Shown one piece after another: positions 43,169 through 63,262 of a stretch of 64,000 bases of DNA. The stretch is taken from contig NMRA01000055.1 of NCBI GenBank assembly GCA_002633005.1, positions 800,282-864,281 on the forward strand. The letters are read 5' to 3'. A program made the translations under genes and the position numbers. Every line of letters starts with the position of its first letter. The stretch's first letter is position 1. The DNA comes from Phoronis australis. Its lineage: Eukaryota > Animalia > Phoronida. The notes beneath the pieces are model-generated. The model saw nothing but the letters and a program-made list of their open reading frames with translations. It did no database searches and was not told the DNA's origin.

Positions 43169-46100
43169 CTAGCAGCTACAGTTGTTTTCCTGTGGGTTGG
43201 TATTCTCGGTCAGTCTCGTGCCTTTGTGTTGGTTGTTGACGATCGTCGGGTCCGAGTCAAGACTTTCCGACATTTTATCGCATATGATGTCGACGAGTCG
43301 CTCAAACACAGCTTTGACGTTAATGTTTTCCTTCGCTGATGTCTCAAAGAATTCCAAACCTAAAATTGTTGACATGAAGAAAGTGTGACAGGATTCAAGA
43401 CTGTATAGAGTACAAAAGATAAGCAAGGCACTGTCATAGCAAACTTGTTCTCAGAATGTCTGAATCAGTCTTATTAGTTTTGAAACAGGCTAGGAATGGA
43501 CGGGGTCAGGTAACTTTGACCAAAGCATACCTCCAGTGCAACATGGAATGTTTCACATATTGTACACCTCTAGTTGGTTCCCACTCAGTAACTATGTACA
43601 GTAAAATTTCACCAGTATACGACACAATATGGCTGACAGATGACTTTTTATGTTCACATTTTTTCGTATAAAATAACGTATAGCACAATTAATGGTTTAC
43701 CATGTTCAACTTTTGTATATCTACCTTCCCACAAAATTTTAAAAACTTTGGAGAATTAACGATTCTAGAAGACCACGAAAAAAAGAAACGGGCAATTTTA
43801 GCTGTTATTTTTTCCAAAAGTGTTGATTTCACTACTATAAGACCACGCTGAGAATTGTCTTGGTGTGACCGCTTCCTTAGTAGCATGACCACTAAAAAGC
43901 TTCAAAAACCTTTCTCTTACCTGCATTTCACTGTCCTGTACTGACCATTGCTAGTGTATCTTATTTCACAACAGATCACAAAGAGAAATATTTCGTGACT
44001 GATCATTTAGAGTAATTCACACACATTTGAAATACTTCGATTGCAATGTTTAATTACAGAAAATGAGGCCAGAATAAAAATGTTAAAATTTCTGAATTGT
44101 GTAAGATATGATGAATGAAAATCTGCTTGCAACAATTCTGATTATGTCACAAATAATAAACCAAAACCTGAACTCAACATCTCACTAGATCATCATTGAA
44201 ATGAAAGAGCAACGGACTGTCTGCCTTTAAAATTTTGCAACCTAGAGGAAAGCCGAGTCTCGGTTGCCTAGGGAGGTTAGGTTCCATTGAGTGAACAGCG
44301 TGAGTCGTGCATTGAGGTGCAGTCTGGGTAATTTTATGGATTTACCATTATCCTATAGTCAACCCACATACATATTATGTGAATGGAATAGGTAATAATC
44401 AGGATTCCAAGCGATAACGCATAATTGAAGCCGGATAAGAAAAAGGATACTTTAAGAAAATTGAAGCATACCAGCATCCCCATAAATACTAGGAATGTTG
44501 GTTAAATCAACACAATGTTGAAACAGTTGCCAATTTAGGATACATGTCAACACGTAAATATTAGCATGCACATTCAAAATTTCCGTGAAGTTGCAGTTTT
44601 TTGATTATGAATTGTCATGCCTACACAATGACAAGTGACCAGGCGAAGGATACAACCATGTAAAACACACATCCAGGTTAGATATACTAAGTTTGCTAGG
44701 AAACTACAGACAAAATGCAACTACTTAATAATCTGCTCTCTGGTTATAAGGTTCCATGCCCAAAGCCAACTGTATCATGTATAAGTCGATTTGGTAGTGG
44801 TGAATTTCGCTAACTATGTTACCACTTTAGAACAGTTAAGCGGGTTCATGGTAATGCCGTTCAACTTAATTCAATTAATTGCTTCAAACCTGTCAACGAA
44901 CTTCTATTCATTTACAAATTTTTGGCCCGATTCATTTCTCAGCAGAGTGCGTTAACCAAGACCACTACAGCAATGACTACACTACACACATGTGTAACAG
45001 GACATAAAGAAACCTTAACTGCAGTGTACATAATGGCCGTATAAACATTCAGTTCACTGTCAAAGATTAGTATGAAATACAGTGTGGAGAGCTTTGCAAA
45101 TTTAAACACGTTTATTACTGCTTTAGAATCGGAGACCTCCACAAGAAGATCAAATCATGAAATCTGCATAGTCATGCGTGTGCAGAACGTTTGAAAGTGA
45201 ATTATCTCCCCTCAATCCTGCAGTCAGCCATTAATCCATCCGGAACACCTGGAGTATTTTCGTAGCCTCAAATTTCGCCTCTAGGGTGAACATTGTCTGC
45301 GAGTGTGCGAACTTCAGTCATATGTTAAGTCAAACGAGGGAATGACTGGCCATATGACTATAATTCGGAGAGACGCCGAAATCACTCAATTCCAACTGAA
45401 AGTTTTTGACGCATAGGAGTCGGTTCTGGATGCCATTAATCTAATGCTGGCAGTGGCAAAAGCAGAAAAAGTAAAATATTCAGAGTTACTTAAAGTCACT
45501 TGAAAAAAGATTCAAGGTGACAGTCTTTTACACAGACTTTGTTTAAAGTAGCAAGCCACGCACGGAAACAGTCAAATGCATGAGTTATAGTAGAAAGGCA
45601 ATTAATTCTACATGCAGATTAAAAACCTGTTGGCATTGCATTAGTTGATCAAGAGGAAAGAAATTCAAAGAAAAATTTTGCAATCTCAAATTGCTTACGG
45701 CAATTGCCTATATCCGTCACAAAGGATCCATTTTCTTAAAGTATTACTTATAGACATATAAAAACTAAATGTTTTTGAAACCCCTGAGGGTCACAGAAGC
45801 TTATGTCCACAAAATGATACTCAGAGATGTTCCTAACCGTGTGACTGCATTTTTTCTAAAAATCTTAATTTTTCACCGAGACCAACATAATTTCCCTAAG
45901 CAAAAATAGTTTTTGCATGAAACAAATTCTGTTCCATTATTCTATCAGCTACAAAAGGGATTTTAAGGCCTTATAGCTCAAGAACTCCACTGTAAAAATG
46001 TAAGACATCAAAACAGAAGTCTCACTTTTTGACAGATGAGCTCTCAGACTAAAAGACCTCAAAAAAAAATTTCAGACTTCCTTTCGGAGCCTATAGAATC

Positions 46101-49100
46101 AAAAAAAAAACAATTGCAATTTTCAAACCAAAGAATTCATATTTGTGGAAAATATGAAGATCTACAAAAATCATGATTTTTTAGATAAAAACACAATAAA
46201 GTGATTACAAACATCAAGGCATTGCTTTAGAACACAGAATCAGATTCCGTTATCATCAAGGACATGAAAAATGCAGTATAATGAGTCTGCTATTGATACG
46301 TAAAAGATTATTTAAGAAATTCAATCCTGAATAATGAAAGAGACCTATTAAGGCGTTCAGTCATAGAAGTGAAATTTCAAGTAGAGACGACTAATCCATT
46401 ATTCTAATTGCTCAGAGACTAAACTGAACAATTTTTAATAACGATATCAATTTTGCTGTAAGAAATTTATATAGATTACTGCATGTTAAAGTTATAACCA
46501 CCAGGTAAGCGCCGTCAATAAAGCCGACAACCACGGACAAAGCAAGCACTTCAGACACAAAGTGAGAGGACAGATATCACCCGCAGCACCATCACCATGA
46601 CTATGACCTCCACGGCCGTGACTCGCCTAGTTATTACCTAGCTGGTCAGCCAGATGCTTGCCCCGTTCCTTCGACACGACCCTCTCGTCCTCCAAATCGC
46701 ATTTGTTACCCACTAGCACCACCTGGGCATTGTCCCATGAGTACGTCCTAATCTGTGTGGACCTGGAAAAGACACGTCATCGACCGTCTACAGGGGACCT
46801 GTGTGTCATACCCTACCTAGACGATCCGCGAGTTGCTTCGCGCGCTCCGTCGAAATGACTCGCTCGTCCTCAAGGTCACACTTGTTGCCGACAAGCACGC
46901 AGCGGGCGTTGTCCCACGAGTACATCTTGATCTGCGTGCACCTGCAAAAGACACGTGACACCGGCCGTCTACAGGGGGTACGACGCTGCGTCCTGCCACC
47001 TAGTGTTGCCGGTGGATATCATGCCAAGGTGTTCTCGCACCCACCAGGGATCAACCTCATCAAAGAACAAATGACAATGTGACTCAACGAATTTTCTGTT
47101 TTGAATAGTCACTAACATTTAGCAACTGTACTTTCAAATCTGGCAGTATTCGAATTTTGAGAAAAATGTCTCCAAAGGTGAGCAGTTGGAGACAAAAGTA
47201 TGGGTTTAGGTTATCTATGAGGAACTGCCACAGGTTAGGTAGACTCCCACCTGGGCATGACTGACCACACGGCAGAGAGAAAGACGAGAGAGAGAAGAAA
47301 GCTCAGCGAAGGACAACAGATAACTAAAGAGCAGTGGCGCCAACATAAGTCACTCCCGAGGCCAGACCTACCTAACTCCTCGGCAAGCTTGCGGCCCGCC
47401 TTGGTCGAGACTACGCGCTTGTCTTCCATGTCGCACTTATTTCCAATGAGCGCAACGGTGGTGTTGGCCCAGGCATGGGTATTAATATTGGTCACCCTGG
47501 AGCAGACAACAGAGGGAGCAACTAAAACACGGTGGTGCGTGCGTAAGTGCACAACAAAGGAAAAGGAGGTAATTCAGTCTATGCTCACTAGGTGGTGCCA
47601 TCTTGCACAAGGATGAACAGTTCGGAATGGGAGGAACCCAAAAGCTGTCTACGTATGCTAGAGGCATCTGAGGGACTAAACATGCAATGGTGGAGAGAAG
47701 GGCAAACAAAAAGTTGTGTATCAAGGTGAGCCATTTTAGCTTGTGTTTACAATAGCAGGAGATGAGCTCAAATGAATGGAGTGGTCAGACCTTATTAGCA
47801 CAGGTAAAGAGTTGTATTACCAAGACTAAGGATAGGGGTCTCTGCAGGTACATATTTGGCCGTGTTTAAATCAGGGAGGCTAGAAATCACCAACAATTAA
47901 ATTTATGCGAAATCAGTGAGGGACAATAAATTATTTTTCCACATAAATTTTGGTGTACAAAATCACGCAGCTGTGCAAAATAAGTGGAGAATTACCGTAT
48001 TTCCACACAAGGTGGCAGCAGGGATCATGGTTCCACACAACTACCAGCAATCTTATACGTAGCATTTTACAAAATAATACACCATAATTATGTACTTGTC
48101 AAATGAATATAAACGTTTCAGTTTTAGACCTCCAAATGAGTTACGAGTTTCTGACTTTTCTTCCTCGTGAAGACTGAAATCAATCTCAGCGCGGAAAGAA
48201 CATCAACATAGTAATTCTCCACTTTTTGCCAAATTTGTCATTTTCCCCGTTTTCAAAGGCCAACTACTTTATTGCAATTAATGGAAAATTTACCAAAAGT
48301 TTGTTTTGTGACATCTACACAGTACAAACCATGCTAAGTAAATGACTAAAACTTTCCTAATCATTTAATTCTGTGGACAAATTTGACAAAACAGAATTTT
48401 ACCTGTTGGCCATTTCGTGTGTTTAACAAGTGAAAAATTACCGCAAATGAGGATATTTAAATCAGGCTCCATTTAGAACAAAATCTGGTCTGTGTACCTA
48501 GCACTACCTTCAACATTTCATTTTTGCCAATAATTTCATGAAACAAATTTTAAAGAAATAGTTTCAACTTATTCCGAAAACGATCCTCAATCACCAGGAT
48601 GTCAAACTGTTTTCAAAATAAATCAGAATTTAGTTTAGGAATTTTAAAGCCTAATGTCCAAATTTTGATGGTATATCACAAATTTAAAACTTTTGGATAT
48701 AACTGCACCGTTCTATAAAATGCTGTGAGCACTTGCTTTCAAAATGTTGAACTTTTGCATGATAGGGTATCAAAAATAGGACTTTTTAAGATTTTTATGA
48801 AAATAATTAAAAGCTACATAAAAGGAAAATGAAACCATAATTCAAATCTATTACAGAATTTTTGAGATTTCATTGTGAAAATAATAATTCAAAAAACTAT
48901 AACAGCCTTTTTGAGATTTCAATGAGAACATTAATTTTGTATAACAAGAAATACCATTGTTTTGCAAAAAATTGACAAAAATACATGGTTACGTGACCCA
49001 ACTAGTGGCAGACTGGTGCATAGTCAATATCAAATTCTACAGCCTTAGTTTGTGCTTTCAGAAAATTTATACTTTTTCCGACTTACAATCAATAGTTCTG

Positions 49101-52100
49101 GCTAAATATAGTCTACTCGATAAGGTCCTGCAATAGCCTTGATACGGATTAAGTTTCATGGTACAATTGGTCCACTTCATGCAAACAGCCATTCAGATAA
49201 AACGTATTTTTCTTACTTCAATTAAATCCCTTGGCCGTTCGGATCCGGATCCGACTTATGAGTTTTACTGTATATCAGTTAAGGGCTGAGATATTGTATG
49301 AGTACTTCCTGTCATACAATACTCTCCCATCTGCTACCAGCAGCAGAGAATGAACTACGGCCAGTTGTAAATACTACGCTGCTGTACTAAACCTGCATCA
49401 ACCGTCATGAATGGAGTTATTAAATAACAACTACAGCAATAGAATGCATGTCCATGAACCTGACATAGATAGTAATAGGTGCGGTAGGCGTAAGGTCAGC
49501 TTTAGTGCTTAAATATGATTCATAAATCTAACTATATGGGTAAATGTACGCACAAAAATTTGATTTTTTTCACTTTCTTGCGTTCCTAAAATGTACAAAT
49601 TTTGACTACCATGTTTAATTCTGATAACGGTAGTTCTGCACGTAATTAAAACACATTGCAGCAGACAAGCCAAAAGAATAATTCGCAAAATTTCACAAAA
49701 ATTAAGATTTAATTTTAGTCAAGTGTTGGCATGGTTTGTACTATGTTGATGATTTGAAAAAACACATGATAAGTTGATCATTTTTAGCAAAGTAATCAGC
49801 CTTCATGACAAAATGACATTTTTAACAATTCTGGTGACCACCTTTCTTCTAAATCAATAAAATTTATTGTATGGTGCTCAAATGTTGAGTCACCAAAGTC
49901 CCATTATTCAGAATCCTATCATGACACTAAACATTTACTAAGCTTTTGGTCAAGATCACATTTTGTTGTTTTCCCTGCTTCATCCAAATTCTGCACTAGG
50001 ATATGCCATAGTGAATGATACAAAAGTACAATAACCTGTCCAGATCAGTGGAATCGCATTATTACTGCGAAAAGACAGTGCAGCCACGGAATAAATTTAA
50101 CAATCCCATGCCGCAAGCAGATTTCCCCAACTCCAAGTGCAATGTTTGTCCTGTGGAAATAGTGACGAGGGGCCTGTTTCAGGAAAAGTGACTTCACAAG
50201 ACTAACGTCAGAAAGTTTGTCTTACTCTCCAGTTTCCACGTAACTATTTCAGAAAAATAATCAAATCTCACAAATGAGAACAAGTCCAAAGTCTAAAAAG
50301 ATCCACATAGTTACTGGGATAATCTCTAGAAATTATTTCTACAGTGTGATGCGCTCGTATTTTCTTGGCTAAACCTTTTTTCAGCAGTTGCGAAATGGAA
50401 GCCTAAGTTTTAAGCCACTTTTATGATACAAGACCTCAGGGTTTTCCTTTCATGACATCCTAGATCTGACATGCATTTATTTGTAGAGATTTTACTAGAG
50501 ATGGGGTCAGAAATGATGCAATACTTCAAAATTACATTATTAGCCCAAATGGGTATGGGACACCCTGTCTTAGCATAGACTGAATTACGGCAGGCTACGA
50601 ACTGAAAACAATTCAACTCAAACTTGACTTGTAAATGAAGACACCTGTGTGATTCTACAATAAAAAATAAAAACTGATATTAGGGAGTGTAAACAACAGC
50701 AAAAACAACAACAACAACAACAACATGAAACTTGAATTTTCGCGACCAGCAGTTGTATTTCTACGCCAGCCATGGAAACTTGTATATGTTACTTGCTTTG
50801 TTGGCTTGTTGCATACCACAAATGTATAACTTGGGATATGACAAACATTCAAAATGAGAATAACCCAAAAAAAAACAATAAAAATCAGGAATATAAATTA
50901 TTTTGTGGACGATGGACTCTAGAATTGGGGTACTGAAATTTGCAGGAAATGTACAACTTATATGTGGAAGAAAAGCATTTCTCTTTGGAGAAGCTTTTCC
51001 TAAATTTTAGACCATTTATCGAAAAATTATGGGCAAACCCATTAATTTTTAGGATAATACTTCTCTCTGTCCAGAACAATTTAGACTAGTTGCAAATACA
51101 ACTACCATAGGTATATATATACCTATGTAATTATCAGAGTGGTAAAAACAAATGCTGTTGATCATTTTGTCTTTTAAAATGCATTGCAGATTGACTCAAA
51201 TAACACCAATTCAATAAAATGGCTCGCATTTAACGCACCAGAAATTTTGTTCAAGTCCAAGTTGGTTTGTCAAACATCGCCTTTCTGGTGCCAGCAGAAT
51301 TATGAAGGAAAATTAAAATTAAAATTTTTTAAAAAACTAAGCCTTGGCTGTACTTTTGTGACAATGAGACAATGTGAAAAAACAAAACGTACTGACCACC
51401 TTGCACTAGTCCATGGGACGACCAAAAAAATTGAGCAGTTTGCTGTTATTGAGACAGTAAGGTAACAGTAATCTGTGCTTCCATAGTGCCGTTAGCATTA
51501 CAAAAGTTGACACGGATCAGCTGATATGGAACGAGATGATAAAGCGCCAGTATGTGTGTAGACAGGACTGACACGGAGCAAATTGACACCATGGTGGCAA
51601 CTTTTGTCACCCGTTTGTGAGGTAGAGCAACTTGTGCTCAATCATTTTGTTCCGTGTCAACTGTATGTCTAAACGCAAAACTGGGGCAAGGCGGAAGGGA
51701 TCATCTCTATTGCGCTTGCGCAAAAAATCACATGTATACAGGTGATCATTTTCGTGCAATTTTTATGACTTGCCAGTCAGCTGTTCAGTGCTTTGTCTTC
51801 TAACTTTACCCCGACCACCATTTACTTTGTTAGGAAAAAGTCAGAATATTACACACAGTTAACAGTCAAGACTGGGTTCAGTTCAAATGCTTGGTTATGT
51901 ACAGCAGGCCTACTGACGAAAGCGTTAATCAGCTGATCAAATAATCGTTGAAGCAAAAACTCAATGTCACAAATTGCGTACACTTGTGGGAATTACCATA
52001 ACAACGACAACAATAACAATAATAAAAATGAACTGCAACTGCAGCGATTTGCATCTTTGCGCACGAGCCCTCCACATTCCTGCCTACAACTTCCGCCTTG

Positions 52101-55100
52101 CCACCGTTTCTTAGTTGCGGGTGTGTAAACGGCCACTTGACACCAATCATCTTGCGTCAGGTCAGTTGCGCCTTGTGTCAAAAGCTAATGTCCATTTTTT
52201 GCATCAAGGGTAATAAGAATTTGAAAACTGTCAAACGGTAATATTGGCAATAATTTTTGTGCAAGAATTACTGGATGTTATGTCTGACTTGGTGAGCGAC
52301 TGAGCGACGGCGTCTAAAACCTTGCTCACAAGTGATTGAGGGGCTTTTAAAAAAAGTCTGATACCTTGGCTGAAATTGATGCTTTTCTTAACGTAGTAAG
52401 GTGCAACTTTCAAAATCATTCAGGTACAGGCCAATACCAAGTATATCTTTTACATGAACAGTGAATCCTATAATGCCAACTTTTGGAAGCATCAATACAA
52501 AAAAAAACATAACTGCAATGAAATTCACATCTAGTTTTGACACAAAATATGAACTCCGTTGTAAAAATATTGTCAATTCTTTTACATTAACACACTGTAC
52601 AAGAGAAAATGATTTTACAACGATCAGCGTCACTTCCTAGGATATCAAGCCACGATGTTAAACAGATACTTGTCTCACAAGTTTGGAGAATCCTTTGAAT
52701 ACACAAGCAAGCAAAATGAACTTACCACAAAGAACAAATGAGTGCAACACTACTCAATGAATAAACAATGGCAATAGTCAGTTACAGGGTCTCTCTTCTC
52801 CCCCCTGCATTTTGAGAACCAGTTTGATGCCTGTTACTCAGTGGAGAAAACTGGTTCTCAAAATGCACTGTAAGTGACTATAAAGCAATTAAGCAAATGA
52901 TAAAGCTTGCTAGACACTGAACAAAATTAATTTGTGTTTCTATGGCAACAACAAGAAGAAAAAGCGAAATGAATCTAAAGTATGTGTTCTAAGATGGCAA
53001 GTGAACGCCATACACAAAAAACAAAGATTCTCGAAAATTGTACAATCGAGCTATAAAACAAGAATGGTCTTGCATTGTATGTCTGAGACGCGATGGATTC
53101 GAATTAAAACACTATGTCAAAGCAAAAACATTGATTCCAAACCCACACTCATCATTGCGAAAATGATCAATTTAAGAACTTGTTAGTCAAAAATTTGGAT
53201 ACGATTTTGGTAATAGACACAGAAGTTGACATTTGATATCTCCCTGAATTACCATTAGAGGAAATACTTGAATGATTTAGGGAAATCTTCATCATATATG
53301 GGCAAAAGGTGGGCATTACATATGAGCCAGCATGTTTTCAAATGAACTGTTCACTTACAGTCAACAACAGTGTATTGATTTGCAATGAATGTATGTGTAC
53401 AGCTATGTAACTGTTATTGGCCTACTTGTCTGCAACAGAGCACCTTCCCTACAAGGACCCCGGGGAACTTAGCCTACAGATTCCCGGAAGCACCGATAGC
53501 TCAACCATGCCCTGCGACGTTGTTTACCATATTCCGGGAAAGCTCTATCACGTTTCAAGATTAGAGAGAGAGTGAATATTTTTTTCCGTGGTTTCATTAA
53601 AATAAAACTGCTGCCCAGATACCTCCCACATCACTGATTGATCATCTTCAACAAGGAATGAGGAGAGGAGAGTTGAACAGCCAAACATAACTTCAAAAAC
53701 ATCTCAACTTCGACTGGAATATGAATCGGCTGAATAATTTGTAGCAAAAAGCACTTGATCTCTTTGTAGTTTTACGCCATTGTGAATAATTCACCTTCAT
53801 CACTGACAGGGAAATATTTAAATCATCTATGTCTTCAAGTTCTGTGACAAGACGTAATATTTATTCCCTTTTCATTGCGAGTAGACTTGTCTAAGCATTA
53901 TTTGCGATTGCCTTACATGACGTGATCGATAAATTATAAGATTCTATTGATTTTCAACAAGCGTAAAGTGGCCACTGAGACAGTAACTGAGCGAGGGAAT
54001 ACCATCCCACGATTACACTTAGGGTACAATGCATCAAGCATCGTTGTACATAATACACATGCGCAAATGCCTTATAAATCAATAAACGTTCATTGGCTTG
54101 TTTCATAATCCTTTGAAAAATTATTCCGCACACTAATTGCCACCAACGCATCTGCAGGGAAGGCAACCAGAAACGTTAGGGACGCCGGATTCAATAGTTT
54201 TACAGGGAAATTAAAACATTAAGTCAGCGTGAAAATGAAACAAGAGCAGCACAGACGTCAGACAGGCGTCCACGTGTGCATCGGAAATGGCAAAGATATG
54301 AGGGATGCTCACTTTTTCAAACTTGCTCATCCACTGCAGTGAACATGACTATTGTGCGCAGCACTAGTCATGAGAAAATTGACCAATTCAATCTCGTTAG
54401 ATGTTGAAATCGCTGCAAAGAAAACTAAAATTACCACTAGGGGGCACTGTAGCAGTCGGATCAATCCAATAATTGACACCAGTCATGTTTACCTTAATAG
54501 AATCTCATGTCATGACGATTCTTGAGACAATGGTGTAACACAATTGCCACTAGGCGGAGCAGAAGTAGTAGACACTGTCCAAAATTTAATGTCAGCCAAG
54601 TTTCTGTTAAACGAAACACCTGCATCCAAGTTTACAGTTCTTAAAACTAATAGGCAAAAAGATGGACGGCAGAAACAAACACCAAAATATAAAAATTGAT
54701 AATAGGGGGCACAGCAGTATTCGGCCCAGTCTGAAAAATTATGGATAATATTGTCTTCTCACTAGAGACACATATGCCATTTATTTAGATCCAATACATT
54801 GAACTGATTGACTTGCTAGATGTAGAGGCAAACGGAAAATTTTAAAACTGCCACGCTAGTAATCAGATCTGTTCCAAAGTTTCTTGTCACCCGTCATCAA
54901 CACCATGGGAAAACATCTGCCAATTTTCATGAGGATCTTGCGAGGGGTTAAGGATATACAGCAAAAATGAAGGCAGTATGCTCCAAATGTGTACATGTGG
55001 GTACATATACGAATACTCACATTACATGGCACTCTTTACCCAAGAGAAAAACGACTGGCATTTTGCTCACGCAAGATTACTCCATGGGAGAAAAAGTCTG

Positions 55101-58100
55101 ACCAGTAAAATATTCTCCGGAGGGACCAATCACAATAGGTGACGTCTCAATACCAAAATGGATCAAAATGGATTATTTGAATCTAGTTTAAAGTCCACAT
55201 GACAAGCCCAGCGAATCAGCTTCTAAGAGGGTCGAGCCGTGTGTGTTACAGTAAAAAGTTGAGCATCGATAAACACGACAAGAGATCTATTTGGACGAAA
55301 TCAGTGGGCTCAAACACTCAAAATAATGTTAGATAGGAATACTGGCTTAATGCTAACGTGCTCCCCAAAAGTACAGACAAGCAGTCCAATTTGACATAAA
55401 AGGTAACCACGAACACTAATACCCTAATAGTTCCCAAAACAATGTCAAAACTGGTCAAGCGATTGGAAGCAGAATTTTCAAGTGTATAACCTCATAGTGA
55501 AGACCGCACACACAGGAATTGAGTTTCGTAAGCTTATGCGCCCGATGCAACTCAATGAAAAACTCGAAACACTTGAGGAGTTCAGCTGTCGGAATCATTG
55601 AAATCAATGTGTTTGTCTTGATCACTTTCGCACATGAATGACAAATGTTCCTACGTACCTCACATTAAAACGACATTCTACTATCATCTCCACACTGCTA
55701 ACTGACAGCTAATCAAATTTAAACTTATCACGTATTTATCAAGTTGTCAACATTTGAGACGAGCATTTTGCTGGACAACGCCTTGAACTAGTGTCTAGGC
55801 TTGCATTTTTAAGAGACCGAAAACGCCTACCAGTCTTGGACAGCTTGGAACGATTCTTCATTGGTGACGTCGTACATCAGTATGAAGCCCATGGCTCCTC
55901 TGTAGTAAGCGGTGGTGATGGTGCGGTACCTCTCCTGGCCAGCCGTGTCCTACAATACATTCATTAATAATGGCCATTAAAAATCTTATCGTTTTACAAG
56001 TATACTAGTAATTGTCAATGCATATATGTGTGTGTGTGTGTGCATGCGCGCGCGTGTGTGCGTGCGTGCGTCAAATAATACACCCCTTCATTTGTATTTG
56101 ACATCAGCGTTAATACATTATTCGTTCAAAAAGAATTACAAGTCTTCTTACACGCCATGTCGGTCACATCCCGTGATCTAAAGTTTAAGTCTGAAGATAT
56201 CTCTGCCCCCACCTGGGACTTTCTACAATCCATGTAGATGCTCTAGTCCACTGAGCTACTTGGACCACCAGTCGATTGTAAAAGATTTATAAGAGACATC
56301 TCATCCCAGCTAGAGAGTTTGCATACATGTATATAATTGTGCTGTTAAATCAGTGCATTCAAATGGTATAAGCAAGAATTATAAGTCCTCTAACACGCCC
56401 TCTGTTGGTCAAATTACATGACCTAGATCTAAGTTGTACTCCCTTCAGCTAAACCAAGTCATAATTTTTCCACAGACACCACTATGTCATTGTTACTGCT
56501 CACACCCAGAGTTACACCGCTAAAATCCAAGTTCTGGGTTTTAATCGCTAAAGGTCTGTCCCATTAAATTTGTTTCATATATTACACAAGGCTGTGACGT
56601 TCAAAACAACATTACCGATTCAGGGTGGGTTGTAGCCGTAAGGTCAAATCAGCTTAGTTGGTTCTGGCGTGTACCCCAACTCATTTAAAAACTCGCGCTC
56701 AACGACTAAAAAATTCGCCAGCCTGCTTCTATGTCTCGGTGTATTTGTACAAAGGTGTGTAATCACATAAGAGTAAGGTTTGAAACATCATGATTTCCCA
56801 GCTATTCTCCCTAGTTTCAGGATATCTTAAAAAGTTAGCAACTAAGAAAGAACCACACCGCCAACTCAGATTTTCAAGACACAGACCATAACCAACTATG
56901 ATTTTTTGGCCAAACCATACTAGAGTTAAAGCTTTTTATACTGTTGGACACCTTGAGTTATAAGCTTTAACACTGATTTGAAAGTCATGACTGCTTTTGC
57001 ACAAACAGTACACATTATAGTAACCAATAATCAATTGTTAACAGTAATCAGTTGCTGAAGGACACAGTTAGATGGTCAACATTAATAATCAACGGGGGGG
57101 GGGNGGGGGGGGGGGGGGCATGTGCCCCCAATAATTTTCACCTTAATACAGGTCTGGCTTTCGTAAGTTTTGAGACTTCTGCCCTGGAAGAACACACTAA
57201 TGGCATAATGAGAGGTTCTCAGGACAACATCCACGGATTATGACAAGTCAGGCCTAATAGACTGGAATTAGATTTCACATCTTGCTAAGGAATAGACCCT
57301 TATTTTTGTAGTTTGAGAAAAATGGTTCTCCAAATTCTAATTACTACAGCTCATGACACACTGTATCAGGGTTCTGGGATTGTAACAACAACTGTTTGCA
57401 CAAATGGCTGAACATGAAAGCACATCCTACACATGTGTACATTTACTCAGCTTTGTGAGCAGTGAGCTGGTTGCATCAGAACCACGTTTTCTCAGACAAG
57501 TATTGACACTATTGATGTTGACTGGGGTATTTTTCAGTCTGTCAAGGTCTATTGAAAGGTCTTCCTTTTGACTGTTCAGGGACCCGCTGTCTTGTATGCC
57601 TGTCTTGTATGCTGCCCACGATAATCAAAACAGACAAGCTCCAGACATCAGGGGTCATTGTTTCTTCACAGCCTGAATTCCCTTAAGTGAAAATTGATGT
57701 CAAAACAAAATCACTTTATGCCCATAAATTGACCAGTGTAACATAAACACAGACCTCTTCCCCAGCCCAGCTTGTCATTTCAAGCTCTGAGTTTGAAGTA
57801 AACAGCCTGCCTACAAAAGTGATAACAAAGCCGCCAGCAAAAGTGACTCTTGTAATCTGGACTTACTGCCTTTTTGATCCTAGCAAAAGNGGGTGCCGGA
57901 TAGGAATATCCTGACTGTGAGAGCAAGATGTAGGATTAGCATTCTAAAATTTGGGACATTGAAAATTTTATTATTTTACTCAAGGTCGACCTTGAACCAA
58001 AAATTTTACAAATAGACAATATTGGCCGTCCCAAATTCAAGAATTACGATCAATTTTTACCGTGAAATAACACTTTAACTGGTACTCTTTGCTGCGCCAT

Positions 58101-61100: not shown

Positions 61101-63262
61101 CAGAAGTAATCGTCCGAGGACTGTAGGATCTCCCAATGGTTTTCCACGGGAGTGAAAGGTTATAGACCTTATGCAAGCTTATGCAAAGAGATGACAGTTT
61201 TCTTCCACTGCCCTTGTTCGGTTTGGAAACCCTCAAGAGGACTATTGGTTCTGGTCATGTGTGTTACGATTGCGGTGGTTAAAAAAGGACACCCAACCCA
61301 TTTCAGCTAACATCAGGTGATGTTGCGGTAAAAAAACTCCGAAACTCATAACACAGCTTAGTGAATTCTAGTACAGTGTTAATTTAGACGTAACTTTTAA
61401 TCAATTTTTATTGCCGTCACTCGACTGAACACAACAAAATCAATTAACGTCGCATTGTATGAATGCCAATGTTCGAGTTCCATGCAATTCACGAACCATT
61501 CTGCAAAGCAAAGGGAGCTAGCTGACATTAACCAGGCTATTGATTATGTCTAAATGGCAAAGAATATATTCACATGCGAAGAATGCTTCACTGATTCACC
61601 AGGGAAATCTAGACGAAGAATAACACGACACTGTGCCAATTAGAAAAGTGCATGAGTAGATAGCAGGTCGAGTGTTCGCGGCAAAATCGTAGGAGTGTCG
61701 TAGCTCGTCGACTCCACGTCTACAAATCAAATGCACGCGATTTGCAACATTAATGAAGTATCATGGCTAATTAGAGACTGATGAAAGGAAATGACTGAAT
61801 AGTTACGGTAAGAGATTTCCAGCGAATTTCCGGTCTACTGCGTCAAATTCAAAGTGTAGCAGGAGCACTTTCAAGGAACGGTGATTGCGTAATGTGACGT
61901 AACAGAAATAGCCAGGAAGAGAGATACGACTTATTCATGACACAAATTTTGGAAGATTATTCAGTGTTGTTAAATCACACGGAATACTCTTAGATCATAA
62001 GGCCACTTCATGCTAGTTTTTCTTTGCGGAATATTTTCCAGAACCTCTAAAACGTGTCGCATGAATGCAAAATCTGCGGGATTATTATTCGAGTTTGATC
62101 AAGAAAAACTTTTGCTGAAAAAAATTTACAAAACGGCTCGCATGGACAAGTTTAAAAGCATAACGCCTCAGTTACAGAGATCAAAGGAGATTAAAAACAT
62201 TAATAGATTCGTTTCTTTCATTTTTTAAAAAAAATTGTGCTAATTTCCTTTTACCCAAATGGATGTCCATTTTTGTTTCCATGTAAACGTTTGAAACCAT
62301 AAATGAACAAATGGAACAAAAAAAAAACGCATTTCTTGATAAGTAGATTTATAAAACCGTGCGTGGTACACACTGCAAGGGACAGGCAACATTATGGAGA
62401 GAACTGATATTAATTACGACAACGTTCCTGATTATTAGACACCATGACAGAAATTGTGAAAAATTAGCCTTACTAAATTATTAGTTCAGTGGAAGGAAAT
62501 AACATCATCATAAAAGTGTGAGTACAGCGGTACAAGTGTTCAATCATTATGACAAGTTTATTCCAACAAAACAATGTCAATGAGATTTAGAGCAAAAATT
62601 CTCCAGTTTGGGCAGTTTCTAAAATTTGAGACACTGAAATTAAAGCCCAAATTGAATTATCATGATTCTGAAGACTGGAACACACCTGATGTTGGTGGTT
62701 ATCATGTTTCTCAAACACTGGATGATGCGATTTGCATTAGAGTCTAAAAATAGACTTGGCAGTTCATCAAGTCACAAAAAGATAGCTGCCAACGCTACAT
62801 TTCAGGCATCCGCATAGAGTCTATCATCGAGATGAACGAATGTTTGTTGTTGCTTTCAATTCTTGAATTTGAAACCACCAATATTGCTTACTTCTAAAAC
62901 TCGATACAAGCAAAGACCTTGAGCAAGAAATTTAATTTTTGCAAAGCCTAACAAGAGACTTTTTGTCATAGTCACGCAGTTCACTTAAACTGTCAAAGTA
63001 CAAAGGAGATTTAAACCACCTGACAGACATCACTCACCCATATCTGTAGTTTGACCCGTTTATCCTGTCGGAACACCGTCTTGACTTTAAAGTCGATGCC
63101 GACTGTACTGACGAAGGCGGACGTAAACGAGTCGTCGGCGTAACGGAACAGGAATGATGTCTTGCCCACGCTGCTGTTGCCGATGATGAGTAGCTTGAAC
63201 ATGTAGTCAAAGTTCTGGTCGGCGGCATCTTTTTGGTAACGTGAGTCGTTTGCGGAAGCCAT
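43169..63262 (-). CDS. RAB3: Ras-related protein Rab3 (219 aa), with three alternative versions of coding exon 3
   Basis: Exon 1 63262-63038 (MASANDS...[42 protein letters not shown]...LQIW), exon 2 55949-55831 ([22 protein letters not shown]...), one of exons 3a/3b/3c, and exon 4 43359-43169 ([13 protein letters not shown]...NCSC*). It ends in a CxC prenylation motif. The ATG directly follows a splice acceptor, so a 5' exon lies further upstream, probably outside the window. Confidence 0.97.
46638..46762 (-). CDS. RAB3: Rab3 exon 3c (most canonical variant)
   Basis: 125 nt, cttttccag|...|gtaata; (W)[41 protein letters not shown](G). Confidence 0.92.
46817..46941 (-). CDS. RAB3: Rab3 exon 3b
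   Basis: 125 nt, cttttgcag|...|gtaggg; (W)[41 protein letters not shown](G). Confidence 0.9.
47372..47496 (-). CDS. RAB3: Rab3 exon 3a (divergent variant)
   Basis: 125 nt, tgctccag|...|gtaggt; (W)[41 protein letters not shown](G). Confidence 0.85.
52774..52881. mobile_element. MITE-like family A copy
   Basis: ATAGTCAGTTACAG...TGCATTTTGAGAACCAGTTT...AAACTGGTTCTCAAAATGCA CTGTAAGTGACTAT. Confidence 0.8.
56023..56071. repeat. Alternating purine-pyrimidine microsatellite (TA/TG/CG)
   Basis: atatatgtgtgtgtgtgtgtgcatgcgcgcgcgtgtgtgcgtgcgtgcgt, about 75 nt upstream of the Rab3 exon 2 acceptor. Confidence 0.9.
59800..60050. repeat. Old dispersed AT-rich repeat (family D); copies at about 63340-63590 and 22380-22590
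   Basis: Shared AAATTTGAA...AACAATGGCCAAAATT...TGTTTGTTGATG.CA.CCATA...TTCCGTCACA.TGT.TTCTAATTT. Boundaries are approximate. Confidence 0.65.

What the first reader, a model, noticed from the sequence alone, without database searches (positions are those of the whole stretch)
46767..46977. Identical 13-nt intronic motif upstream of the 3b and 3c acceptors
Seen: on the + strand, AAAAGACACGTcatcgaCCGTCTACAGGGG (46767-46796) and AAAAGACACGTgacaccggCCGTCTACAGGGG (46946-46977). In transcript sense each acceptor is preceded by CCCCUGUAGACGG...ACGUGUCUUUUSCAG. These intronic blocks are identical although the neighbouring exons differ at many third-codon positions, and 3a lacks the motif. Inference: a selected cis-element, either selector sequences competing for one docking site (as in Dscam1 or 14-3-3 clusters) or a protein-binding or branch-point element. 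I could not find a convincing complementary docking site by eye.
Basis: partly seen in the sequence, partly recalled or inferred. Interest (0 to 1): 0.7.

Follow-up and report, generated by a model that had tools for sequence, protein, structure and literature searches.

The report
Twin intron arms in Rab3 splicing
An invertebrate's Rab3 gene (a switch for neurotransmitter release) splices in one of three versions of an exon, and two identical 13-base intron pieces beside the middle version likely fold back onto neighbouring splice sites to hide them, a predicted RNA-folding control that is untested and not yet shown to be conserved.

Summary
The 13-mer occurs exactly twice in 64 kb, before exons 3b and 3c of a minus-strand lophotrochozoan Rab3 gene, although synonymous sites of the two exons match at only 14 of 31 codons. 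RNA reads show 3a, 3b and 3c joined one at a time (3c about three quarters). I found no intronic docking site beyond chance. Instead the 13-mer pairs over 12 of 13 bases with two splice sites of the cluster, the 3b donor and the 3a acceptor. Only 1 of 814 other GC-rich intronic 13-mers does as well, and the 3b donor's best partner in 12.5 kb is the b copy. Best reading (0.45): antisense arms that compete to hide splice sites and keep 3b rare. Against it: most single pairings do not beat shuffles, the motif is absent from 108 distant Rab3 loci, and its conservation in a close relative could not be read. Bdelloid rotifers loop out their first exon-3 variant with a different, well-conserved stem, so RNA pairing plausibly governs this cluster elsewhere. 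The scan earlier noted a three-exon Rab3 in another genome.

The parts
63038..63262 (-). Rab3 first coding exon (e1)
55831..55949 (-). Rab3 constitutive exon e2
   Evidence: junction reads
47372..47496 (-). Exon 3a (THAW type), 125 nt
   Evidence: 19 e2-3a and 19 3a-e4 reads
47489..47511 (-). 3a acceptor region; predicted partner of both 13-mer copies (12 of 13 nt paired; c arm -24.6, b arm -21.2 kcal/mol)
   Evidence: prediction only
46965..46977 (-). 13-mer, copy b, 24-36 nt before the 3b acceptor; with 46978-46984 it forms the longer arm that pairs with the 3b donor
   Evidence: (inverted repeat I5)
46942..46956 (-). Second shared block before 3b: branch-like A at -15, pyrimidine tract, AG; unchanged in one contig of organism B
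46817..46941 (-). Exon 3b (MYSW type), 125 nt, minor
   Evidence: 19 e2-3b and 11 3b-e4 reads
46805..46826 (-). End of exon 3b with its donor: best-supported common partner of both copies
   Evidence: prediction only
46763..46816 (-). 54-nt intron between 3b and 3c; never seen spliced out
46784..46796 (-). 13-mer, copy c, 22-34 nt before the 3c acceptor; predicted hairpin with the 3b donor
46763..46777 (-). Second shared block before 3c (branch-like A at -15, tract, AG)
46638..46762 (-). Exon 3c (TYSW type), 125 nt, major
   Evidence: 111 e2-3c and 111 3c-e4 reads
46612..46628 (-). Intron stretch after 3c that can pair with 46787-46770 (16 bp, -23.7 kcal/mol) and would hide the 3c acceptor
   Evidence: not beyond shuffles (8 of 40)
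43169..43359 (-). Rab3 last coding exon (e4)

Best explanation
The two 13-mers lie on either side of exon 3b in a three-way mutually exclusive Rab3 exon cluster and are likely antisense arms of the pre-mRNA, predicted to compete for the cluster's own splice sites, above all the 3b donor, and to hide them from the spliceosome. Shown: the cluster, one-at-a-time splicing, the isoform shares, the identity of the copies and their complementarity. Inferred: both copies stay identical because they pair with the same constrained target. In the predicted default fold, copy b closes the 3b acceptor and copy c closes the 3b donor, leaving the -15 branch-like A, tract and AG of 3c outside both hairpins, so 3c would dominate. 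Alternatively the long b arm pairs with the 3b donor and loops 3b out. 3b would be used only when copy b moves to the 3a acceptor and copy c is drawn off the donor. The 54-nt intron and the frameshift on double inclusion would back up exclusion of 3b plus 3c.
For: 13-mer against the 3b donor and the 3a acceptor: -14.7 and -14.0 kcal/mol, matched by 0.35% and 0.46% of all 25-nt windows of the 12.5-kb pre-mRNA; 46 of 3000 dinucleotide shuffles and 2 of 3000 mononucleotide shuffles reach both. Of 814 other intronic 13-mers with 8 or more G+C, 1 pairs as well with two cluster sites; 0 of 230 with 9 or more. The 3b donor's best partner in 12.5 kb is the b arm (-24.1), better than the best hit in 25 of 25 block-shuffled genes (mean -19.6, sd 1.3). 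The top partner of the b 20-mer is the 3b donor; of the c 20-mer, the 3a acceptor and then the 3b donor. In the fold of 46560-47560, copy b on its own acceptor has P 0.94 and copy c on the 3b donor P 0.95, in line with 3b being minor (11 of 141 reads into e4). A transcript ending at 46760 puts copy c on the 3a acceptor (15.4 expected pairs). In one organism-B contig 46894-46962 is unchanged while 4 of 8 third positions just beyond differ. Bdelloid rotifers flank their first exon-3 variant with a conserved stem (9 of 10 rows at p 0.01).
Against: No covariation of the 13-mer was seen. In organism B it lies in the contig's end zone, where 4 of 8 differences are not listed. It is absent from 108 distant Rab3 loci. 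Only 1 of 10 queries beat all shuffles; the motif 20-mers themselves did not (10 and 13 of 25). Longer c arms did not either (13 and 8 of 40). The b arm's best hit (1 of 40) was a window next to and overlapping itself, not the donor, whose -31 is about the shuffled mean. Local folds have z of +0.55 to -1.5; the perfect-helix test around 3b gave p 0.07. The second-best statistic was one of four tried (others 48, 22 and 6 of 814). Splice-site consensus (CAG|G, AG|GU) favours any CCUG-bearing query. Removing both copies in silico raises unpaired fractions only from 0.20 to 0.40 (3b acceptor) and 0.26 to 0.35 (3b donor). The fold that would admit 3b, and the loop-out pairing, are not populated in the full-length equilibrium fold. 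None of 9 non-rotifer MYSW exons has a flanking stem.
Confidence: 0.45

Rival explanations
1. The 13-mer and the second block are sites read by proteins or snRNPs: a silencer or a decoy acceptor (CCCCUGUAG looks like a 3' splice site) sitting just before a branch point at -15. Complementarity to splice sites is a by-product.
For: Both acceptors have a UnAC adenosine at -15, exactly where the second block begins. All three variant acceptors have an upstream AG at -26 to -28, inside the 13-mer for 3b and 3c. UAG and GUAG cores resemble hnRNP A/B and Musashi sites (recalled, from no call). Protein control of a three-exon cluster is known: CELF/UNC-75 on unc-32 (PMC3585155, search listing only). 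Folding z-scores are ordinary.
Against: 13 identical bases exceed the usual 4-8-nt protein site (own knowledge). No other match with fewer than 3 mismatches occurs in the 64-kb window. No read uses the upstream AG among the 15 joints listed. It does not explain the rank of the pairings.
Confidence: 0.25
2. Classical Dscam-type selectors. One upstream docking site (the 3a acceptor region, or an intronic site I ranked lower) takes either copy and activates the exon just behind it; 3a needs no selector because it is nearest the docking site.
For: The layout fits: copies before 3b and 3c, none before 3a. In a joint scan with both extended copies the 3a acceptor ranks 2 of 4105 windows. Both copies extend the pairing with different flanking bases. 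The model is described in PMC6071210 (part 1 of 5 and passages) and PMC4691838 (abstract and discussion).
Against: The 3a acceptor's best partner in 12.5 kb is not a motif copy and is not beyond shuffles (14 of 25). The top joint window (49191-49162) was not tested for conservation. In the full-length fold neither copy sits on the 3a acceptor.
Confidence: 0.15
3. Neutral remnant of a local gene conversion or re-duplication between the 3b and 3c acceptors. Exclusion is done by the 54-nt intron and by decay of frameshifted messages.
For: Any branch point in a 54-nt intron is under 50 nt from the 3b donor, the steric limit used in PMC5740500 (passages). All double inclusions frameshift. The motif is missing from distant relatives. 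The tree does not resolve 3b with other MYSW exons.
Against: Two identical blocks are split by a spacer of different length and sequence, and the exon starts differ. 3b and 3c share 90 of 125 nt, no more than either shares with other animals' exons (83-101). The second block before 3b is unchanged in organism B.
Confidence: 0.15

Closest known systems
Docking-site/selector pairing in Dscam1 exon 6 (upstream docking) and 14-3-3zeta, Mhc, MRP1 (downstream docking); as summarised in PMC6071210 (passages) and PMC4691838 (discussion)
   Same: Tandem duplicated, mutually exclusive exons; repeated short intronic elements beside all but one variant; predicted competition for one partner.
   Different: No dedicated intronic docking site found. 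The best partners are splice sites of the cluster, so pairing would hide sites rather than only bring them close. Here no conservation, covariation or mutant data exist.
Bidirectional pairing in Drosophila srp exon 4 and Dscam exon 4/9 (PMC4691838, abstract and discussion read)
   Same: Pairings on both sides of a variant exon that could loop out its neighbours.
   Different: The srp arms are intronic, conserved and tested; here the downstream pairing (after 3c) is not beyond chance.
Human ATE1 exons 7a/7b, R1 and R4 competing for R3 (PMC7797038, search listing with start of abstract)
   Same: Two elements competing for one partner close to the variant exons.
   Different: Two exons rather than three; different gene and phylum; ATE1 elements are experimentally proven.
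Annotated Rab3 isoforms of molluscs, Lingula and nemerteans; RAB37 tandem-exon substitution (PMC8373072, passages)
   Same: THAW-, MYSW- and TYSW-type exon 3; Haliotis rufescens has all three (P0011, P0156, P0160).
   Different: These are database annotations with no splicing mechanism. I did not check which RAB37 exon is duplicated.

Membership tests
Docking-site/selector mutually exclusive clusters (Dscam1, 14-3-3 type) | Tandem homologous exons included one at a time | tested here: met
   Six junction types, 290 reads, each with one variant; no variant-variant joint among 15 listed (4 not shown), none for 3b-3c
Docking-site/selector mutually exclusive clusters (Dscam1, 14-3-3 type) | Similar selector sequences beside the variant exons | tested here: met
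   Identical 13-mers before 3b and 3c, none before 3a
Docking-site/selector mutually exclusive clusters (Dscam1, 14-3-3 type) | One docking site in a flanking intron, complementary to all selectors | tested here: not met
   No intronic partner beyond shuffles in 43360-55830; top partners are the 3b donor and 3a acceptor
Docking-site/selector mutually exclusive clusters (Dscam1, 14-3-3 type) | Conservation and compensatory changes across species | tested here: inconclusive
   Absent from 108 distant loci; unreadable in the one near-relative contig
Docking-site/selector mutually exclusive clusters (Dscam1, 14-3-3 type) | Disruption and compensatory rescue in a minigene | not testable with these tools
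   bench test
Bidirectional pairing (srp type) | Two conserved pairings, one on each side, each favouring one exon | tested here: inconclusive
   Candidates exist but the downstream one is matched by 8 of 40 shuffles
Steric-hindrance pairs | Donor to branch point under 50 nt | tested here: met
   3b-3c intron is 54 nt; branch point inferred, not mapped; criterion from PMC5740500 passages
Rab3 GTPases | Closest sequence relatives are Rab3 | tested here: met
   Best named hits are Rab-3 of molluscs, a nemertean and a brachiopod; exon 3c matches solved Rab3 chains first

The most novel reading that the evidence does not exclude
A three-way exon switch with no docking site of its own. Duplicated antisense arms swap between splice sites of the cluster, so that hiding one site frees another. 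Spiralian Rab3 has kept RNA-pairing control of this exon while rebuilding the arms in each lineage: the 13-mers here, an intronic stem in bdelloid rotifers, a donor-to-donor helix in locus L028.
Probability: 0.25. Interest if true: 0.7.

Novelty: new variant of a known kind. Interest (0 to 1): 0.48.

Why it matters
Competing RNA pairings in mutually exclusive splicing are proven mostly in arthropods and a few vertebrate genes (papers listed). This is a compact case (about 1 kb, three exons, all expressed) in a lophotrochozoan neuronal gene, easy to put in a minigene. If the arms act on splice sites directly, it answers a gap the docking model leaves open, namely how the exons on the far side of the chosen one are silenced (PMC6071210, passages). 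The swapped exon carries the loop after helix 3, which I recall as part of Rab3's effector-binding surface, so exon choice may tune vesicle release. No listed title or abstract start in four searches described this cluster or its control: Rab3 + mutually exclusive exon (46 papers, 20 listed); Rab3 + alternative splicing + mollusc + isoform (11, 10 listed); Rab3 + exon duplication + lophotrochozoa (0); Rab3 + alternative exon + RNA secondary structure + invertebrate (1). Most subscription papers are not in that library.

Tried and rejected
Intronic docking candidates at 53520-53509, 52810-52801 (inside a stretch that reads show to be a high-copy repeat), 54459-54434 and 49191-49162: top or near-top by energy. 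The motif arms' best whole-gene hits did not beat shuffles; these four sites were not each tested. Element 47852-47838, which pairs 15 bp with the 3b acceptor (-22.4): matched by 8 of 25 shuffles, so dropped as evidence. A 10-bp stem around 3a (p 0.02 locally) is barely populated in the full fold. Mirtron: the 54-nt intron does not pair end to end and is not seen spliced. Tree of 36 exon-3 peptides: 41 columns, 17 of 30 branches open; it could not date the 3b/3c split. Splice-site-masking arms in 9 other loci: 3 of 36 queries beat all 30 shuffles against about 1.2 expected, so no general rule. No genome is held for this window, so genome-wide copy number of the 13-mer is unknown. The run search listed no RNA holder by index; the three raw-read runs came by species label, from one study, and 18-19% of each was read. 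Contigs of X5 did not cover the cluster. The X6 word share (0.07) cannot place its unlisted differences. The first protein search, with exon 3a, returned only three fungal Rabs. Look-ups of earlier findings by sequence and by relatives returned nothing. No supplements were read.

Full report
What the locus is. The finding lies in a Rab3 gene on the minus strand: e1 63262-63038, e2 55949-55831, three 125-nt versions of exon 3 (3a 47496-47372, 3b 46941-46817, 3c 46762-46638) and e4 from 43359. Each version alone gives a full Rab3 of about 220 residues; any two together, all three or none end early. The introns are 8334, 430, 54 and 3278 nt. The best named relatives of e4 are Rab3 proteins of molluscs, a nemertean and a brachiopod, so the animal is probably a lophotrochozoan.

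The exons are used one at a time. Three raw RNA runs with the same species label (one study, 18-19% of each read) gave e2-3a 6/2/11, e2-3b 0/6/13, e2-3c 19/12/80, 3a-e4 6/3/10, 3b-e4 0/2/9 and 3c-e4 17/29/65 reads. 3c takes 111 of 149 upstream and 111 of 141 downstream joints. None of the 15 listed joints links two variants or skips all three, though 4 weaker joints were not shown. A narrower lay of 182 reads from one run listed no 3b-3c joint.

The cluster is old. THAW-type (3a-like) isoforms are annotated in scallops, oysters, gastropods, a chiton, Lingula and Tubulanus; MYSW-type ones in Haliotis rufescens and Lineus; Haliotis rufescens has all three types. Loci L009 and L066 carry MYSW then TYSW in the window's order. 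A tree of 36 peptides groups 3a with the first exons of L028, L056 and L080 (97/83) but leaves 3b and 3c in an open fork, so orthology of 3b to other MYSW exons is not shown. An earlier scan note (e1-7275006) reported three tandem versions in another genome with only the standard one in RNA; here all three are seen.

The observation. The 13-mer is exact at 46784-46796 and 46965-46977 and nowhere else in the window with fewer than 3 mismatches. The second block is shared, the spacers are not. 3b and 3c match at 14 of 31 third positions of same-amino-acid codons and at 90 of 125 nt, within the 83-101 that either shares with TYSW and MYSW exons of other animals. A leftover of the exon duplication is therefore unlikely; selection, or a short patchy conversion, is needed.

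Search for partners. Scanning 43360-55830, two of the four best hits of the 13-mer are splice sites of the cluster: the end of 3b with its donor (-14.7 kcal/mol) and the 3a acceptor (-14.0), each pairing 12 of 13 bases around a 2-3-nt bulge; the other two are intronic, at 53520 and 52810. These sites are matched by 0.35% and 0.46% of windows. Singly they give p 0.036 and 0.10 against dinucleotide shuffles of the motif (only 168 distinct shuffles), jointly 46 of 3000. Turning the test round, 1 of 814 other GC-rich intronic 13-mers pairs as well with two of the six cluster sites; by best, third-best and summed energy the counts are 48, 22 and 6 of 814. Taking each splice site as query, only the 3b donor has a partner better than all 25 shuffled genes, and that partner is the b arm 46985-46964; this is 1 of 10 queries. 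The arms as queries do not beat shuffles, and local folds have ordinary z-scores. The signal lies in where the partners fall, not in their strength.

Predicted folds. In the ensemble of 46560-47560, copy b pairs with its own acceptor (P 0.94) and copy c with the 3b donor (P 0.95), closing 3b at both ends. The alternatives are b arm:3b donor (-31.1), c arm:3a acceptor (-24.6), b arm:3a acceptor (-21.2) and 3c-upstream:3c-downstream (-23.7), all unpopulated at full length. With growing transcripts, the b arm is split between its own acceptor and the 3a acceptor (3.7 and 3.3 expected pairs) just after the 3b acceptor is made, and the c arm sits on the 3a acceptor when the RNA ends at 46760. This agrees in kind with 3c major and 3b minor, but removing the copies changes accessibility only modestly, and the model has many free choices. 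Both acceptors have a UnAC adenosine at -15, where the second block starts, and an AG inside the 13-mer. I read the second block as branch point plus tract (inference).

Relatives. A pattern for the conserved exon fetched 108 metagenome loci (80 with flanks). None holds the motif core; the second block occurs twice, 2150 nt from the exon. None is a close relative, so this does not refute selection. One 151-nt contig of depth 4 from organism B covers 46842-46992 with 8 differences. The 4 listed are third codon positions at 46872-46893, and 46894-46962 is unchanged (4 of 8 against 0 of 16 third positions, p 0.007 with a boundary chosen afterwards). The other 4 are unlisted, presumably near the contig ends, where the 13-mer lies; its conservation is undetermined.

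An independent lineage. Ten distinct A+T-rich loci are bdelloid rotifers by their named hits (Adineta steineri, Rotaria sordida). They have two exon-3 variants 98-133 nt apart, and the first is flanked by GTACATCCA upstream and TGGATGTAC downstream. 9 of these 10 give p 0.01 in a helix test, against 0 of 9 other MYSW exons, 0 of 8 TYSW, 0 of 18 and 3 of 24 single-exon paralogues and 0 of 10 other variants. The 9-pair core is 98.9% paired, with one C-G to U-A change in two near-identical rows (one event; not beyond the shuffle control, 227 of 500). The sequence differs from the window's and both arms are intronic, so this supports the kind of mechanism, not the window's pairings.

Verdict. The motif is real and probably selected. 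It most likely works like a selector, by RNA pairing, but with the cluster's splice sites as partners (0.45); a classical docking model gets 0.15, a protein or decoy site 0.25 and a neutral remnant 0.15. It is not filed as a Dscam-type member, because no intronic docking site was found and covariation is untested. Exclusion of 3b plus 3c is also covered by the 54-nt intron and the frameshift, so the motif more likely sets the ratio than creates exclusivity (inference).

Papers seen: PMC6071210 (part 1 of 5 and passages), PMC4691838 (abstract, outline, discussion), PMC5740500 and PMC8373072 (passages); PMC7797038, PMC3585155 and others as search listings only. RNA-binding-protein motifs and the effector role of the Rab3 loop are recalled; one search shows only that exon 3c aligns with residues 103-143 of chain 1zbd_A.

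Noticed in passing
L003, L007, L021, L026, L036, L037, L040, L048, L050, L071, around the first exon-3 variant: Bdelloid rotifer Rab3 has two tandem exon-3 variants; the first is enclosed by a conserved intronic stem of 8-15 bp with one compensatory change. A cleaner case of pairing-controlled exon choice than the window's.
   Followed up: yes
L028, donor of the THAW exon and +2 to +14 after the MYSW exon: A 13-bp uninterrupted helix (12 Watson-Crick pairs) can join the two donors of the cluster; better than all 30 shuffles, 1 of 36 queries; not kept in L056 or L080.
   Followed up: partly
L009:2316-2537 and the matching stretch of L066: The 30 nt before the TYSW exon and about its first 90 nt are identical between two species whose MYSW exons differ at many synonymous sites; strong acceptor-side constraint of unknown cause.
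   Followed up: no
L035, L045, L057, about 150-250 nt before the TYSW exon: Conserved intronic hairpin GCCATGACAA...TTGTCATGGC.
   Followed up: no
window 47852-47838 (-): Element resembling the b arm, 340 nt before 3a, able to pair 15 bp with the 3b acceptor; not beyond shuffles.
   Followed up: yes
window 47244-47234 (-): GTCTACCTAAC can pair 11 bp with the 3a donor and also contains a CUAAC branch consensus; a similar 10-mer follows the MYSW exon of L056.
   Followed up: partly
window 47522, 46969, 46788 (-): All three variant acceptors have an extra AG 26-28 nt upstream; use of it before 3b would create a stop at the junction.
   Followed up: partly
window 52804-52867: A 60-nt stretch draws thousands of reads on both strands with loose ends: part of a high-copy expressed repeat in the e2-3a intron.
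   Followed up: no
L001, L011 and many like them: Many loci fall into two Rab3 paralogue types (STQVK and LEYERV) in which no second exon-3 variant was detected within the DNA held.
   Followed up: no
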